IMG/VR virus record: IMGVR_UViG_3300027906_000002
Span: 96,001-160,000 of that record
Direction: 5' to 3' (one strand)
From: a virus
DNA length: 64,000 bases
Under the pieces are notes generated by a model. That model did no database searches. It saw only the letters and a program-made list of their open reading frames with translations, and had not been told where the DNA came from. Position 1 is the first letter of the stretch. The number at the start of each line of letters is the position of its first letter. The position numbers were made by a program, and so were the translations under genes. Below, one piece after another: positions 44,730-47,636 of this stretch.

Positions 44730-46130
44730 ATGTCTAACATTAAACAACTCCAAGAAAAGTGGGCCCCTGTTCTTAATCACGATGCTCTTCCAGAGATCGA
44801 GGATACTTATAAGAAAGGCGTTGTAGCCCAACTTCTTGAAAACCAGGAAAAAGCACAGATCGAAGAAGGAAACATTCTTAACGAAACTCTTCAGACTGTA
44901 GGTACAGGTGGATATGGTGCTGGTAGTACCGCCACAGGTCCAGTTGCTGGTTTCGACCCCGTTCTAATCAGTCTTATCCGTCGTTCAATGCCTAAGCTAA
45001 TTGCTTATGACATTGCTGGTGTTCAACCAATGACAGGTCCAACAGGACTTATCTTTGCGATGAGAACCAACTACGGTACAGAAAGAGATGCTACAGACTC
45101 TGATTACAGAGAGGCATTCTTCAATGAGCCTAACGCTGGATTCTCTGGTGGCCCAGGTAATCGTCTTGCTGACTATGATCCTAGTGCTTCTGGTTCTGCA
45201 ATCAACGATGCTGAAGGTACTAACCCTGCATTGCTTAACGACTCTTCACCAGGAACTTACGAGTTAACAGGTGATGCCACTGGAATGGCAACAACCACTG
45301 CTGAAGCACTGGATGACAGCTCTGCTGCAACAGCCTTCAGAGAAATGGGTTTCTCAATCGAGAAAGTAACAGTTACTGCGAAGTCACGTGCTTTAAAGGC
45401 TGAGTACTCAATCGAACTAGCTCAAGACTTGAAAGCAATTCATGGTCTAGATGCCGAGCAAGAGTTATCAAACATTCTCTCAACAGAGATACTTGCTGAA
45501 ATCAACAGAGAAGTTGTTCGTACTATCTACGTTAATGCTGTAGAAGGTGCTCAGAACAATACTGCTGATGCTGGTATATTTGACCTAGACGTTGACTCCA
45601 ATGGTAGATGGTCAGTTGAGAAGTTCAAAGGACTACTCTTCCAAATCGAAAGAGATGCTAACGCTATCGGACAGCAAACTCGTCGTGGAAAGGGCAACAT
45701 CTTGGTCTGTTCTGCAGACGTTGCTTCTGCTCTAGGAATGGCTGGTGTACTTGATTACACTCCTGCTCTTAATGGCAACAACGCTCTTACTGGTGTTGAT
45801 GATACTGCAAGCACACTTGTTGGTACTCTTAACGGTAAGATCAAGGTTTATGTTGATCCTTATTCTGCTAACGTTGCTGACAAGCACTTCTACGTTGCTG
45901 GATACAAAGGTACTTCACCTTATGACGCTGGATTATTCTATTGCCCATATGTACCTCTACAGCAGGTCAGAGCAATTAATCCTAACACCTTCCAACCAAA
46001 AATTGGCTTTAAGACTCGTTACGGAATGGTTTCTAACCCATTTGCTCAAGGTCTTACACAAGGTTCTGGTGCTCTTACAGCTAACACCAACAAGTACTAC
46101 AGACGTGTACAAGTTGCAAACATAATGTAA
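44730..46130 (+). CDS. gp23: Major capsid protein gp23
   Basis: KWAPVL, FDPVLISLIRR.MP.LIAYDIAGVQPMTGPTGLIFAMR, ALKAEYSIELAQDLKAIHGLDAE, FQPKIGFKTRYG. Confidence 0.98.
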   Translation: MSNIKQLQEKWAPVLNHDALPEIEDTYKKGVVAQLLENQEKAQIEEGNILNETLQTVGTGGYGAGSTATGPVAGFDPVLISLIRRSMPKLIAYDIAGVQPMTGPTGLIFAMRTNYGTERDATDSDYREAFFNEPNAGFSGGPGNRLADYDPSASGSAINDAEGTNPALLNDSSPGTYELTGDATGMATTTAEALDDSSAATAFREMGFSIEKVTVTAKSRALKAEYSIELAQDLKAIHGLDAEQELSNILSTEILAEINREVVRTIYVNAVEGAQNNTADAGIFDLDVDSNGRWSVEKFKGLLFQIERDANAIGQQTRRGKGNILVCSADVASALGMAGVLDYTPALNGNNALTGVDDTASTLVGTLNGKIKVYVDPYSANVADKHFYVAGYKGTSPYDAGLFYCPYVPLQQVRAINPNTFQPKIGFKTRYGMVSNPFAQGLTQGSGALTANTNKYYRRVQVANIM

Positions 46131-46152: not shown

Positions 46153-46181
46153 AAAGAGACCCCAAAGGGGTCTCTTTTTTT
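46153..46181 (+). terminator. Rho-independent terminator after gp23
   Basis: AAAGAGACCCC-AAA-GGGGTCTCTTT followed by a T-run. Confidence 0.9.
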
Positions 46182-46184
46182 ATG

Positions 46185-46191
46185 CTAAATA
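46185..46191 (+). promoter_or_regulatory. Late-promoter variant (CTAAATA)
   Basis: Directly after the gp23 terminator and 20 nt before the AsnRS-like ATG; the same variant precedes gp19 and gp20. Confidence 0.55.
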
Positions 46192-46211
46192 GATTAGTTT
46201 GACTAAAAATA

Positions 46212-47003
46212 ATGACAAGCTTGATTGATCCAAAGAAATATACTGAGACAGTGGGGCGTTTACGCTCCTTTTTTTTAGCCAAAGGATTCTATGAAGTACA
46301 TACACAAAACCGTTTAAGTATACTTGCTGCTTGTGAAGATCCAGAAACAGTAGCAACATATAATTACGGTGGTAATATATGGCCACTACCACAAACAGGT
46401 CAGATGTGGCTTGAACATGAATTACTTTCTAACCCTTCAGCAGAAGGGTTTTTCTGTGTCTCAACGTCTTATAGGGCAGAACCAAACCCAGTACCAGGAA
46501 GACATGAAACGATCTTCCCTATGTTTGAGTTTGAAATGAAGGGGGATGTAGAAGATCTTAAGAGCATGGAGATTGATCTATGCAAATATCTAGGACTTCC
46601 TGAGTTAGATATAGAAACTTATGAAGACTGGTCTAATAAATTCAACACGAAAGAACTAGACCATGACCATGAAAAGGCAATTGGTTCTGGTATGATTACA
46701 GAGTTCCCTGAATGGACATCACCTTTCTGGAACATGTCTAGGAACGATGATGGAACCAGTAGAAAGATTGATGTTATCTTAGGTGGCATGGAAACCATTG
46801 GTAGTGCAGAACGCAGTACTGATAAAGAACAGATGCGTAATACCTTCTACACCATATCTGATGGTGGGTATGCTCAACTTATTATCGATAAGTTTGGTAG
46901 AAGTAGAGTAGAGAAAGAACTAGAAGACTTCCTCTCATTTGATTTCTTCCCTCGTTCTGGAGGTGGGATAGGAGTCCAACGTCTAATGTCAGCCCTTTCA
47001 TAG
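46212..47003 (+). CDS. Class IIb aminoacyl-tRNA synthetase-like protein (AsnRS-related), catalytic domain only
   Basis: Motif 1 LRSFFLAKGFYEVHT, AsnRS-like QTGQMWLE, motif 2 YRAEPNPVPGRHETIFPMFEFE, DVILGGMETIGSAER, motif 3 PRSGGGIGVQRL. Motif 1 begins at about residue 15, leaving no room for the OB-fold anticodon-binding domain. Confidence 0.85.
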   Translation: MTSLIDPKKYTETVGRLRSFFLAKGFYEVHTQNRLSILAACEDPETVATYNYGGNIWPLPQTGQMWLEHELLSNPSAEGFFCVSTSYRAEPNPVPGRHETIFPMFEFEMKGDVEDLKSMEIDLCKYLGLPELDIETYEDWSNKFNTKELDHDHEKAIGSGMITEFPEWTSPFWNMSRNDDGTSRKIDVILGGMETIGSAERSTDKEQMRNTFYTISDGGYAQLIIDKFGRSRVEKELEDFLSFDFFPRSGGGIGVQRLMSALS

Positions 47004-47011
47004 GGCTACAT

Positions 47012-47097
47012 TGTGAGGTGACGAAATTGGTAAACGTGTCAGTCTGTTTAACTGATGTTCCTGGCGGGACTTGAAGGTTCGACTCCTTCCCTCACAG
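47012..47097 (+). tRNA. tRNA with GUU (Asn) anticodon and a long variable arm; CCA not encoded
   Basis: Acceptor TGTGAGG/CCTCACA, discriminator G; D-arm ACG-AAATTGGTAAA-CGT; anticodon arm TCAGT-CTGTTTA-ACTGA (GTT at 47046-47048); V-arm GTTCC-TGGC-GGGAC; T-arm GAAGG-TTCGACT-CCTTC. Confidence 0.88.
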
Positions 47098-47129: not shown

Positions 47130-47636
47130 ATGAATCATAGGGTAGTTGATAATTTTTTAACCCATCATGAGTTGGCACATCTACAAGAAGTATATCTTGA
47201 AGATGACTTTCCTTGGTTTTGGGGACCAACAACTGTACCTTATGAGGGATCCAATTGTGAAAATGAATTAGATAACTATCAATTCTACCATCCATTTTAT
47301 GTTCCAGGAATGTATAATAATACACCGTACTGGAACATACTCGATCCTATAATAAAAAAACTTGGTGTTAGATCTCTTCTAAGAATAAAGGGAAACTTAA
47401 CTACAAGAACTACAGAAATAGTTGAACATGGATATCATGTAGATTTTAAATGGGATGATTCTTTAACAGCAATTTACTATGTTAATAGTAATGATGGGTA
47501 TACCATATTTGAAGATGGTACTAAAATAGAAAGTGTAGAGAACCGTATTGTCATCTTCCCAGTCCATCATAAACATAGTGGTACTAGTTGTACTAACGAA
47601 AAAAGAAGAGTTATTATTAATTTCAATTACTTCTAA
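47130..47636 (+). CDS. 2OG-Fe(II) oxygenase
   Basis: True start MNHRVVDNF at 47130; HGYHVDF (HxD), TAIYYVNSNDGYT.F, VESVENR.V.FP...KHSG...R.IINFNYF. Confidence 0.82.
   Translation: MNHRVVDNFLTHHELAHLQEVYLEDDFPWFWGPTTVPYEGSNCENELDNYQFYHPFYVPGMYNNTPYWNILDPIIKKLGVRSLLRIKGNLTTRTTEIVEHGYHVDFKWDDSLTAIYYVNSNDGYTIFEDGTKIESVENRIVIFPVHHKHSGTSCTNEKRRVIINFNYF

What the first reader, a model, noticed from the sequence alone, without database searches (positions are those of the whole stretch)
46185..47097. Late cassette pairing an anticodon-domain-less AsnRS-like enzyme with a structurally aberrant tRNA-Asn: possible phage-encoded orthogonal Asn system
Seen: after the gp23 terminator, a late box (CTAAATA) precedes a 263-aa class IIb catalytic domain with no OB-fold anticodon-binding domain, and 8 nt after its stop lies a GUU-anticodon tRNA with a long variable arm. 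Established: canonical AsnRS reads the anticodon through the OB-fold; SerRS is the class II precedent for ignoring the anticodon and gripping a long variable arm; OB-less AsnRS paralogues include the archaeal tRNA-independent asparagine synthetase and EpmA. My recollection, to be verified, is that marine picocyanobacteria lack AsnRS and use ND-AspRS plus GatCAB. Inference: enzyme and tRNA may be a co-evolved pair in which the V-arm or acceptor stem replaces anticodon recognition, supplying Asn-tRNA during synthesis of the Asn-rich virion proteins.
Basis: partly seen in the sequence, partly recalled or inferred. Interest (0 to 1): 0.88.

Follow-up and report, generated by a model that had tools for sequence, protein, structure and literature searches.

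The report
Phage mini-synthetase with Leu-derived Asn tRNA
A marine cyanobacterial virus carries a stripped-down asparagine-type tRNA-charging enzyme next to the genome's only tRNA, which has a leucine-tRNA body with asparagine identity marks; the two are inherited together in many ocean viruses and may be a private charging pair, but nobody has tested this.

Summary
ORF 46212..47003 is a 263-aa class IIb synthetase core with no anticodon-binding domain. Eight bases after its stop lies a structured 86-nt tRNA (47012..47097) with anticodon GUU, a long variable arm, U1:A72 and G73. It is the only tRNA in the 179-kb phage genome. Earlier follow-ups in this scan found the same cassette on other DNA; P-SSM2, P-SSM5 and P-SSM7 annotate it as 'tRNA ligase' plus tRNA-Asn.

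New here:
- The tRNA body is tRNA-Leu-like. Only the acceptor end and the anticodon are Asn-like.
- G34-U35-U36 and G73 never vary, but position 37 is U or C in all but one variant and position 33 is not always U, which is odd for a decoding tRNA.
- Enzyme and tRNA stay linked in clades down to about 49% protein identity.
- A sister clade on giant-virus-labelled contigs has no tRNA, and there the core is fused or adjacent to PyrD, PyrE and PyrF.
- Four picocyanobacterial genomes lack asnS and have gatB.

Best reading (about 45%): an acceptor-end-reading mini-AsnRS charges its own orthogonal tRNA, giving direct Asn-tRNA in an AsnRS-less host. The tRNA-free, pyrimidine-linked relatives and the odd anticodon loop keep other readings open.

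The parts
46153..46183 (+). Intrinsic terminator after gp23 (11-bp G+C-rich hairpin plus T-run). It separates the cassette from the capsid gene.
   Evidence: sequence read
46185..46191 (+). T4-type late-promoter-like box CTAAATA, 21 nt before the ATG
   Evidence: An [ACG]TAAATA box lies 27-31 nt (box start to ATG) upstream in 75 of 79 related loci and 7 nt upstream in the other 4, against 6.6% background. That it is a late promoter is inferred from the T4 and cyanophage consensus, not tested.
46195..46203 (+). Conserved leader motif TAGTTTGAC (family pattern YAGTTT(T)G) between the late box and the start codon; role unknown
   Evidence: Seen in all twelve upstream sequences printed; not counted over the rest
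46212..47003 (+). 263-aa class IIb (Asn/Asp-type) aminoacyl-tRNA synthetase catalytic core with motifs 1-3 intact and no OB-fold anticodon-binding domain
   Evidence: phrog_29758, E 4e-159, unknown function. Structure. Fold matches to AsnRS, Z 25.9-26.5. Invariant catalytic residues.
46992..47006 (+). 5-bp hairpin that contains the stop codon TAG (47001..47003), just 5' of the tRNA. The stem covaries among relatives (GCCC/GGGC, GCTC/GAGC, GCAC/GTGC, TCCC/GGGA).
   Evidence: Alignment. The role is inferred: a 3'-end stabiliser of the mRNA after RNase P cleavage.
47012..47097 (+). 86-nt type II tRNA. It has U1:A72, G73 (47097), a tRNA-Leu-like D arm, anticodon GUU (47046..47048), U at position 37 (47049), a 5-bp variable arm and a canonical T arm. 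No CCA is encoded.

Best explanation
The cassette is a self-contained late transcription unit: late box, a mini class IIb synthetase gene, a stop-codon hairpin and a tRNA.

The enzyme keeps the full adenylate-forming active site of the AsnRS/AspRS lineage and has AsnRS-type residues at the side-chain specificity positions. It has lost the OB-fold that reads the anticodon.

The tRNA descends from a tRNA-Leu-type scaffold (Leu-like D arm, long variable arm). Its Leu identity has been erased (G73 instead of A73) and replaced by the tRNA-Asn identity set: GUU anticodon, G73 and U1:A72.

I infer three steps.
1. The enzyme forms Asn-AMP and transfers Asn to this tRNA by reading only the acceptor end.
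2. The Leu-type body with its long arm keeps host enzymes off. Class II Asp/Asn enzymes approach from the variable-loop side, LeuRS needs A73, and SerRS needs the Ser-type tertiary structure.
3. The pair therefore gives the phage a direct, glutamine-independent route to Asn-tRNA in a host that has no AsnRS and must make Asn-tRNA through non-discriminating AspRS plus GatCAB.

The odd loop positions (37 mostly U or C; 33 not always U) may make the tRNA resistant to host anticodon-loop enzymes.

Shown: anatomy, linkage, intact motifs, Leu-like body, and the host lacking asnS. Inferred: which amino acid, that charging occurs, orthogonality, and the benefit to the phage.
For: - Linkage. The tRNA follows the gene by 8-18 nt in nearly all of 80 close loci. 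A covariance model finds it in 32 further loci at 49-72% identity. On the protein tree, tRNA-linked rows form two clades (34 of 37 rows and 5 of 5 rows). The pair keeps together while its neighbours change, for example after gp23 in P-SSM7 and before a lipase gene in P-SSM2 and P-SSM5.
- Sole tRNA. This is the only tRNA in the 179,402-bp genome.
- Expression hint. Metatranscriptome contigs cover both genes, and one bridges the ORF end, the tRNA and 34 nt beyond. This is weak, because they are contigs from RNA libraries.
- Enzyme. R88, E90, H98, E106, E108, E194, R201 and R257 are invariant across distant relatives. The best fold matches are AsnRS (2xti Z 26.5, 8tc8 26.1, 1x54 25.9), ahead of yeast AspRS 24.0, GenX 23.6 and archaeal AsnA 23.5.
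- Specificity positions. The alignments show Q-M-W-L-E (Leu where AspRS has Lys), F-E-F-E (Glu where AspRS has Asp) and G-S-A-E-R (Arg kept). The mapping onto E. coli AspRS K198/D233/R489 and T. thermophilus AsnRS E225/R368 is from my own knowledge.
- tRNA. The cloverleaf shows 19 of 24 compensatory pairs, U1:A72 in 27 of 27 rows and an invariant G73. U1:A72 is the base pair that marks bacterial tRNA-Asn for GatCAB (PMC1635274). The model's best hits in two Prochlorococcus genomes are tRNA-Leu (60.5, 60.4, 57 and 55 bits), while host tRNA-Asn does not reach E 0.01.
- Host. There is no asnS above the cut-off (best 117.6 bits against 342.6), and gatB scores 595-609 bits in all four genomes.
Against: - tRNA-free relatives. 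Relatives with every catalytic residue intact have no adjacent tRNA. These include huge phages at 47% identity and an 18-row sister clade on contigs that IMG/VR labels GVMAG.
- Pyrimidine link. In that sister clade the core is fused or adjacent to PyrD, PyrE and PyrF in five loci with different arrangements. This points to a tRNA-independent activity for at least part of the family.
- Anticodon loop. Position 37 is U or C in nearly all variants, where tRNA-Asn has A37. Position 33 is C or A in some. Both are poor for ribosomal decoding.
- Charge. The protein is strongly acidic (pI 4.7, net charge -17; the tRNA-linked clade has a median of -20), and it has no extra RNA-binding module.
- Host enzymes. 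The tRNA keeps exactly the marks that the host ND-AspRS and GatCAB use, so the host may charge it without the phage enzyme.
- No direct evidence. Nothing here shows aminoacylation, tRNA processing or CCA addition.
Confidence: 0.45

Rival explanations
1. The enzyme is a tRNA-independent amino-acid ligase. It would be an AsnA or archaeal AS-AR-like asparagine synthetase (Asp + NH4+ + ATP gives Asn), or a related Asp/Asn-activating enzyme that feeds nucleotide metabolism. The tRNA would simply be a co-transcribed Asn decoder charged by the host ND-AspRS and GatCAB.
For: - OB-less AsnRS paralogues with this fold are known asparagine synthetases (3p8t, Z 23.5; E. coli AsnA 11as, Z 20.2). The NCBIfam model for archaeal AsnA gives a weak partial hit (E 7.6e-6).
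- Catalytically intact relatives have no tRNA, and some are fused or adjacent to PyrD, PyrE and PyrF.
- The tRNA keeps GUU, G73 and U1:A72, which are the host pathway's determinants (PMC1635274).
- The protein is acidic.
Against: - In a host without AsnRS, free asparagine cannot enter translation. An asparagine synthetase next to a tRNA-Asn would therefore have no obvious use there.
- Deep, near-obligate linkage to one peculiar tRNA is not expected for a metabolic enzyme.
- The score against the AsnA model is far below its cut-off (25 bits against 389).
- The long variable arm should hinder a full-length class IIb enzyme. This is an inference from AspRS-tRNA complexes.
Confidence: 0.2
2. The enzyme acts on the amino acid already attached to the tRNA. 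The host ND-AspRS would load Asp by reading GUU and G73. The phage core would then amidate Asp-tRNA using AsnA-type chemistry and free ammonium, bypassing the glutamine-dependent GatCAB.
For: - G34-U35-U36 are invariant although the phage enzyme has no anticodon reader.
- The acceptor-end marks are invariant.
- The pocket is shared by AsnRS and AsnA-type enzymes.
- The host depends on transamidation.
Against: - No class II core is known to do this.
- The long arm probably blocks ND-AspRS (inference).
- The residues that hold a free alpha-amino group and activate the alpha-carboxylate are arranged as in aaRSs.
- The tRNA-free relatives are not explained.
Confidence: 0.07
3. The tRNA is not primarily a ribosomal decoder. 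It would be a carrier or target. Either the aminoacyl-tRNA donates its amino acid to a non-ribosomal acceptor, or the core modifies the anticodon loop, as the truncated GluRS paralogue GluQRS does on tRNA-Asp.
For: - Loop positions that matter for decoding are relaxed or abnormal (33 = U/C/A; 37 = U/C). The block G34-U35-U36 is invariant and position 37 is U in most variants, as if a protein read it.
- There is precedent for anticodon-domain-less synthetase paralogues with new acceptors, such as EpmA (GenX; Z 23.6) and GluQRS (my own knowledge).
Against: - The tRNA has a canonical elbow, T loop and acceptor end, and G73 plus 1:72 are conserved. This fits 3'-end chemistry.
- No transferase gene travels with the pair.
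- One variant has the normal A37 (L246).
Confidence: 0.1
4. The unit's main role is counter-defence. The tRNA would be a nuclease-insensitive substitute for host tRNA-Asn. The synthetase would be needed only because the remodelled tRNA is no longer a substrate for host enzymes.
For: - Phage tRNAs with anticodon-loop changes have been proposed to evade host anticodon nucleases, including colicin E5-type enzymes that cut GUN-anticodon tRNAs (PMC10264068).
- This tRNA differs from host tRNA-Asn at loop position 37 and throughout the body.
- It is the phage's only tRNA.
Against: - No tRNA-Asn-targeting nuclease is known in Prochlorococcus, and none was searched for here.
- This reading overlaps the best explanation, since it needs the same charging step. 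It is a motive rather than a separate mechanism.
Confidence: 0.08

Closest known systems
Asparaginyl-tRNA synthetase, class IIb catalytic domain (e.g. P. horikoshii 1X54, B. malayi 2XTI, human 8TC8)
   Same: Same fold (Z 25.9-26.5, rmsd 2.1-2.4 A over about 240 residues). Motifs 1-3 are present, and the specificity positions carry AsnRS-type residues.
   Different: There is no N-terminal OB-fold anticodon-binding domain or hinge. Identity is only 21-24%. Scores are far below the NCBIfam asnS cut-offs (19-21 bits against 343-414). The flipping loop has a family-specific A-C-E-D-P motif. It is paired with a non-canonical tRNA.
Archaeal asparagine synthetase A (AS-AR, AsnRS2; PDB 3P8T) and E. coli AsnA
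   Same: A stand-alone class IIb core of similar size with no anticodon domain (Z 23.5 and 20.2).
   Different: Those enzymes have no tRNA partner. The match to the AsnA model is 25 bits against a cut-off of 389. Fold and profile matches to AsnRS are better.
EpmA (GenX/PoxA), the LysRS-derived EF-P lysyl ligase
   Same: An OB-less class IIb core that transfers an activated amino acid to a dedicated acceptor shaped like a tRNA arm (Z 23.6).
   Different: EpmA belongs to the LysRS lineage. This protein has the Q-x-x-Q signature of the Asp/Asn lineage. It scores 15-17 bits against cut-offs of 264-287.
Natural dedicated synthetase-tRNA pairs that do not read the anticodon (PylRS-tRNAPyl; SerRS with long-arm tRNAs)
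   Same: A class II core with an unusual cognate tRNA encoded beside it, and recognition expected away from the anticodon.
   Different: Here the anticodon is a sense anticodon for the standard amino acid. The tRNA body is borrowed from another isoacceptor family. The variable arm is not conserved.
Bacterial tRNA-Leu and tRNA-Asn
   Same: The D arm and long variable arm resemble host tRNA-Leu (60 bits with model R1). GUU, G73 and U1:A72 match host tRNA-Asn.
   Different: It lacks the A73 and Leu anticodon of tRNA-Leu. It lacks the A37 and short variable loop of tRNA-Asn. It is a chimera of the two identity sets.

Membership tests
Asparaginyl-tRNA synthetase (AsnRS) | Class II catalytic core with motifs 1, 2 and 3 and the ATP-binding arginines | tested here: met
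   PF00152, E 2.9e-13. R88, R257 and other catalytic residues are invariant in relatives. AsnRS are the top fold matches.
Asparaginyl-tRNA synthetase (AsnRS) | N-terminal OB-fold anticodon-binding domain | tested here: not met
   The 263-aa protein starts at motif 1. The model aligns only to the catalytic domain of AsnRS (model residues 3-263 to 131-414 of 1x54). There is no OB-fold Pfam hit.
Asparaginyl-tRNA synthetase (AsnRS) | Score above the curated asnS model cut-offs (TIGR00457, NF003037) | tested here: not met
   19.2 and 20.6 bits against cut-offs of 342.6 and 414
Asparaginyl-tRNA synthetase (AsnRS) | Asn-type rather than Asp-type side-chain pocket | tested here: inconclusive
   By alignment, Leu replaces the AspRS Lys, Glu replaces the AspRS Asp, and the Arg is kept. 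Archaeal AsnA may share the same residues, and the residue mapping is from my own knowledge.
Asparaginyl-tRNA synthetase (AsnRS) | Esterifies Asn to tRNA-Asn | not testable with these tools
   Needs an aminoacylation assay
Asparagine synthetase A, archaeal AS-AR type | Score above the NF005055 cut-off; tRNA-independent Asp amidation | tested here: not met
   25.2 bits against 389, with only residues 81-147 matched. The activity itself cannot be tested here.
EpmA (GenX) | LysRS-lineage pocket and a score above the TIGR00462 / NF006828 cut-offs | tested here: not met
   15.2 and 17.3 bits against 286.9 and 264. The Q-T-G-Q signature belongs to the Asp/Asn lineage.
tRNA-Asn (bacterial) | Anticodon GUU, discriminator G73, U1:A72 | tested here: met
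   (U1:A72 in 27 of 27 rows; G73 invariant). One distant clade has A1:U72. Host tRNA-Asn shares all three marks.
tRNA-Asn (bacterial) | Type I body (short variable loop) and purine A37 in the loop CUGUUAA | tested here: not met
   The variable arm is long and position 37 is U. Host tRNA-Asn does not reach E 0.01 with the model of this tRNA.
tRNA-Leu (bacterial) | Leu-type D arm (GUGGCGgAAuUGGUAgACGC) and long variable arm | tested here: met
   The best hits of model R1 in two Prochlorococcus genomes and two huge phages are tRNA-Leu at 55-62 bits. See the alignment.
tRNA-Leu (bacterial) | Discriminator A73 and a Leu anticodon | tested here: not met
   G73 and GUU are invariant

The most novel reading that the evidence does not exclude
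The family may be a virus-wide Asn/Asp-activating core whose acceptor has diversified.
- In phages it would serve a purpose-built tRNA of tRNA-Leu origin. Its non-canonical anticodon loop (an invariant GUU followed mostly by U or C at position 37, with a variable position 33) would be read by something other than, or in addition to, the ribosome.
- In the giant-virus-labelled clade the same active site would be wired by gene fusion into the PyrD-PyrE-PyrF branch of pyrimidine synthesis. That would imply an undescribed aspartate- or asparagine-dependent step in viral nucleotide metabolism.
Probability: 0.15. Interest if true: 0.88.

Novelty: new variant of a known kind. Interest (0 to 1): 0.72.

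Why it matters
- If the pair works as inferred, it would be a natural synthetase-tRNA pair that is orthogonal by design. It would be the smallest known class IIb enzyme charging a tRNA without reading the anticodon, on a tRNA whose identity was rebuilt from another isoacceptor's scaffold.
- It would show that abundant ocean phages repair a gap in their host's translation apparatus. The host has no AsnRS and depends on glutamine-dependent transamidation under nitrogen scarcity.
- It would be a ready-made starting point for orthogonal translation systems.
- The tRNA-free relatives fused to pyrimidine enzymes raise a second, independent question about what this active site does in large eukaryotic viruses.

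Tried and rejected
- Metatranscriptomes. Only Logan contigs with small word shares were available. They show presence in RNA libraries and one contig across the ORF-tRNA junction. They cannot show transcript ends, RNase P processing, CCA addition or charging.
- Genome scans for cellular relatives. The scan with the 54-sequence alignment failed because no stretch was conserved enough. The scan with the bacterial-type member P0218 found nothing. The cellular range of the family is therefore known only from two Logan contigs.
- Bacterial-context members. NCBIfam gives no family for them. Two of them have degenerate motifs 2 and 3, so they say little about the phage enzyme.
- Huge phages. I looked for a GUU tRNA with pyrimidine-37 elsewhere in their genomes. 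Only tRNA-Leu hits and one canonical tRNA-Asn with A37 were found.
- ATP-dependent ring closure. I considered that the pyr-linked enzymes close N-carbamoyl-aspartate into dihydroorotate. I rate this unlikely because the residues that hold a free alpha-amino group are conserved.
- Queuosine-directed chemistry. The tRNA-guanine transglycosylase needs U33-G34-U35 (my own knowledge), and several variants have C33 or A33.
- Other searches. The first pattern search for host tRNA-Asn used the wrong spacing and was redone. The Protein Atlas search returned only the protein's own viral clusters. No paper on this pair was found in the held library.
- No complex prediction was run, because no protein-protein claim is made.
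Full report
**Observation**

The window is part of a complete 179,402-bp T4-like cyanophage genome with 37% G+C. The parts lie as follows.
- The major capsid gene gp23 is at 44730..46130 (Pfam Gp23, E 6.5e-148). It is followed by a strong intrinsic terminator at 46153..46183.
- A CTAAATA box lies at 46185..46191, and the ORF runs 46212..47003 (263 aa).
- The protein matches Pfam PF00152 (class II D/K/N synthetases) over residues 14-262 and nothing else. PHROGs places it in phrog_29758, 'unknown function' (E 4e-159).
- Eight bases after the stop codon a tRNA begins. Rfam RF00005 places it at 47012..47097 (52.5 bits), and ARAGORN calls it tRNA-Asn with anticodon GTT.

**Is the tRNA real and structured?**

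I aligned 28 distinct homologues.
- The five-helix cloverleaf, including the variable arm, is paired in 99.8% of cells.
- 19 of 24 pairs show changes on both sides.
- Sliding the partners drops pairing to 38-47%.
- U1:A72 is present in 27 of 27 rows, and G73, G18-G19 and the T loop are invariant.
- CCA is not encoded here. It is encoded in one distant relative, L093.

**Linkage**

GenBank already annotates the same pair in Prochlorococcus phages as 'tRNA ligase' plus tRNA-Asn. In P-SSM7 it sits after gp23 and three other tRNAs. In P-SSM2 and P-SSM5 it sits in a different neighbourhood, before a lipase gene.

IMG/VR holds more than 590 loci.
- Of the 80 closest (78-100% identity), practically every locus with at least 100 nt downstream has the tRNA 8-18 nt after the stop.
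- Searches seeded with more distant cores, combined with a covariance model of the tRNA, found the same arrangement in 32 more loci at 49-72% identity.
- On a protein tree the tRNA-linked rows form two clades, 34 of 37 rows and 5 of 5 rows.
- An [A/C/G]TAAATA box lies 27-31 nt upstream of the start codon in 75 of 79 loci (7 nt in the other 4), whatever lies further upstream, against 6.6% of background windows. The pair therefore behaves as an autonomous late-type unit.
- A small hairpin that contains the stop codon covaries among relatives.
- This is the only tRNA in the whole phage genome, so it is not part of a general codon-adaptation set.

Earlier follow-up agents of this scan reached the 'mini-synthetase with private tRNA' reading on other genomes. 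The points below go beyond that.

**What the tRNA is**

The model built from this tRNA was run on two complete Prochlorococcus genomes. The scores were:

| Host tRNA | Bits |
|---|---|
| tRNA-Leu(UAA) | 60.5 and 60.4 |
| tRNA-Leu(AAG) | 57 |
| tRNA-Leu(CAA) | 55 |
| tRNA-Ser(GCU) | 48 |
| tRNA-Tyr | 46.5 |
| tRNA-Asn | below the E 0.01 cut-off |

- In two huge-phage genomes the best hits are again tRNA-Leu.
- The D arm is nearly identical to the tRNA-Leu D arm and unlike those of tRNA-Ser and tRNA-Tyr.
- Host tRNA-Asn is a canonical 72-nt molecule with U1:A72, G73 and the loop CUGUUAA.

The phage tRNA is therefore a chimera: a Leu-type body carrying the Asn identity set of GUU, G73 and U1:A72. 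U1:A72 is the pair that marks tRNA-Asn for bacterial GatCAB (PMC1635274).

Three points follow from established identity rules, which I state from my own knowledge.
- LeuRS needs A73.
- SerRS needs the Ser-type tertiary structure.
- Class IIb enzymes approach the tRNA from the variable-loop side.

Such a molecule should therefore be a poor substrate for host LeuRS, SerRS and full-length ND-AspRS. This is inference, not a result.

**What is odd about the tRNA**

Across all clades G34-U35-U36 and G73 never vary. Other positions do.
- Position 37 is U in most variants, C in some and A only once.
- Position 33 is U, C or A.
- One clade has A1:U72.
- The variable arm ranges from about 7 to 45 nt and is absent in L093.

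A pyrimidine at 37 and a non-U at 33 are unusual for an elongator tRNA that reads A-starting codons. The arm is too variable to be a specific recognition handle.

**The enzyme**

- The AlphaFold model is confident (pLDDT 96.8).
- An all-against-representatives structural search ranks AsnRS first (Z 26.5, 26.1, 25.9). Yeast AspRS (24.0), GenX (23.6), archaeal AsnA (23.5) and E. coli AsnA (20.2) follow.
- A family profile also hits AsnRS first (E 4e-15), then archaeal-type AspRS (1e-13) and archaeal AsnA (5e-7).
- The catalytic residues are invariant in relatives down to 45% identity.
- At the positions that separate Asp from Asn recognition, the family has Leu, Glu and Arg, as in AsnRS (residue mapping from my own knowledge).
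- The protein fails every curated family cut-off for asnS, ND-aspS, AsnA, EpmA and LysRS, so it is a family of its own.
- It is acidic, with pI 4.7.

**The wider family changes the picture**

An exhaustive profile search finds 664 clusters at 50% identity, mostly 260-300 aa. Three kinds of relative matter here.
- P0123 is a PyrD-core fusion found on seven contigs, beside a PyrE-PyrF fusion. P0152 is a core-PyrF fusion beside PyrE and PyrD. Both keep all catalytic residues.
- In IMG/VR an 18-row clade is sister to the main tRNA-linked clade. Its contigs are mostly named GVMAG, with 22-39% G+C. It has no tRNA, and further loci in it place the core next to PyrD or PyrE-PyrF in other arrangements.
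- Huge phages at 47% identity have the core without a nearby tRNA, once next to a RimK-like ATP-grasp gene. Two members lie in bacterial chromosomal contexts, and some of that type have degenerate motifs.

The active site is thus used with and without the tRNA. What it does beside pyrimidine enzymes is unknown.

**The host**

I searched three complete Prochlorococcus genomes (MIT 1012, MIT 9302, SS51) and Synechococcus RCC307.
- No match to asnS exceeds the cut-off. The best is 117.6 bits against 342.6, and the hits are LysRS and AspRS.
- gatB scores 595-609 bits in all four.
- An AsnB-type enzyme is present in three of the four.

The 'Asn-rich virion' argument is weak. Asn is 6.0% of the phage proteome and 6.7% of gp23, and 70% of Asn codons are AAT.

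**Verdict**

The most likely mechanism, at about 45%, is a private aminoacylation pair.
- A mini-AsnRS reads the acceptor end of a tRNA that was made orthogonal by its Leu-type body.
- This supplies Asn-tRNA directly in a host that can make it only by transamidation.
- The odd loop may be an adaptation against host enzymes that act on anticodon loops (PMC10264068).

The main rival, at about 20%, is a tRNA-independent AsnA-like or nucleotide-linked ligase. The tRNA-free and pyr-fused relatives support it. The uselessness of free Asn for translation in an AsnRS-less host, and the depth of the tRNA linkage, weaken it. Minor rivals are amidation of tRNA-bound Asp and a non-ribosomal role for the tRNA.

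No publication on this pair was found in the held library. Bench assays would settle the question.

Noticed in passing
L087:6001-7986, L091:544-2310; also L219, L224, L236: Relatives of the core (47-57% identity, all catalytic residues kept) are fused to dihydroorotate dehydrogenase or OMP decarboxylase. Others sit next to PyrD and PyrE-PyrF in several different arrangements, on AT-rich contigs that IMG/VR mostly labels as giant-virus MAGs. No tRNA is adjacent.
   Followed up: partly
window 46992-47006: A 5-bp hairpin encloses the stop codon of the synthetase gene, directly 5' of the tRNA. Its stem covaries across relatives. It may protect the 3' end of the mRNA after RNase P cleavage.
   Followed up: partly
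window 46195-46203: A conserved YAGTTT(T)G motif lies in the leader between the late box and the start codon, in all twelve relatives whose upstream sequence was printed (not counted over the rest). Its role is unknown. The GTTT resemblance to the anticodon loop may be coincidence.
   Followed up: no
window 46253-46276: A terminator-like hairpin with a run of eight T lies about 40 nt inside the synthetase ORF, over the motif 1 codons. It is probably a by-product of the Ser-Phe-Phe-Leu codons. Attenuation was not examined.
   Followed up: no
window 47130-47636: The downstream gene is a 168-aa 2OG-Fe(II) oxygenase-like protein (Pfam PF13640, E 8e-6). It falls in phrog_274, which is labelled 'DNA endonuclease V' (E 3e-50). 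It is not part of the cassette in P-SSM2 or P-SSM7.
   Followed up: no
L001:2897-2969 (P-SSM7): In P-SSM7 the cassette is preceded by tRNA-Ile(UAU), tRNA-Arg(UCU) and a 73-nt tRNA-Leu(UAA). That tRNA-Leu is short for a bacterial-type tRNA-Leu. Its relation to the Leu-like body of the GUU tRNA was not examined.
   Followed up: no
L093:4057-5181: In a distant linked cassette (60% identity, short variable region, CCA encoded) the next gene is a Bmp/PnrA-like nucleoside-binding lipoprotein. This is another link to nucleotides.
   Followed up: no
L004:4940-6502 (LR756501, the 735-kb phage): In the largest huge phage, the core gene is followed by a 520-aa protein with a RimK-like ATP-grasp domain.
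   Followed up: no
window protein residues 40-44: A family-specific A-C-E-D-P motif, with a nearly invariant Cys41, replaces the E-G-G of the AsnRS flipping loop next to the conserved Glu that binds the amino group. The role of the cysteine is unknown.
   Followed up: no
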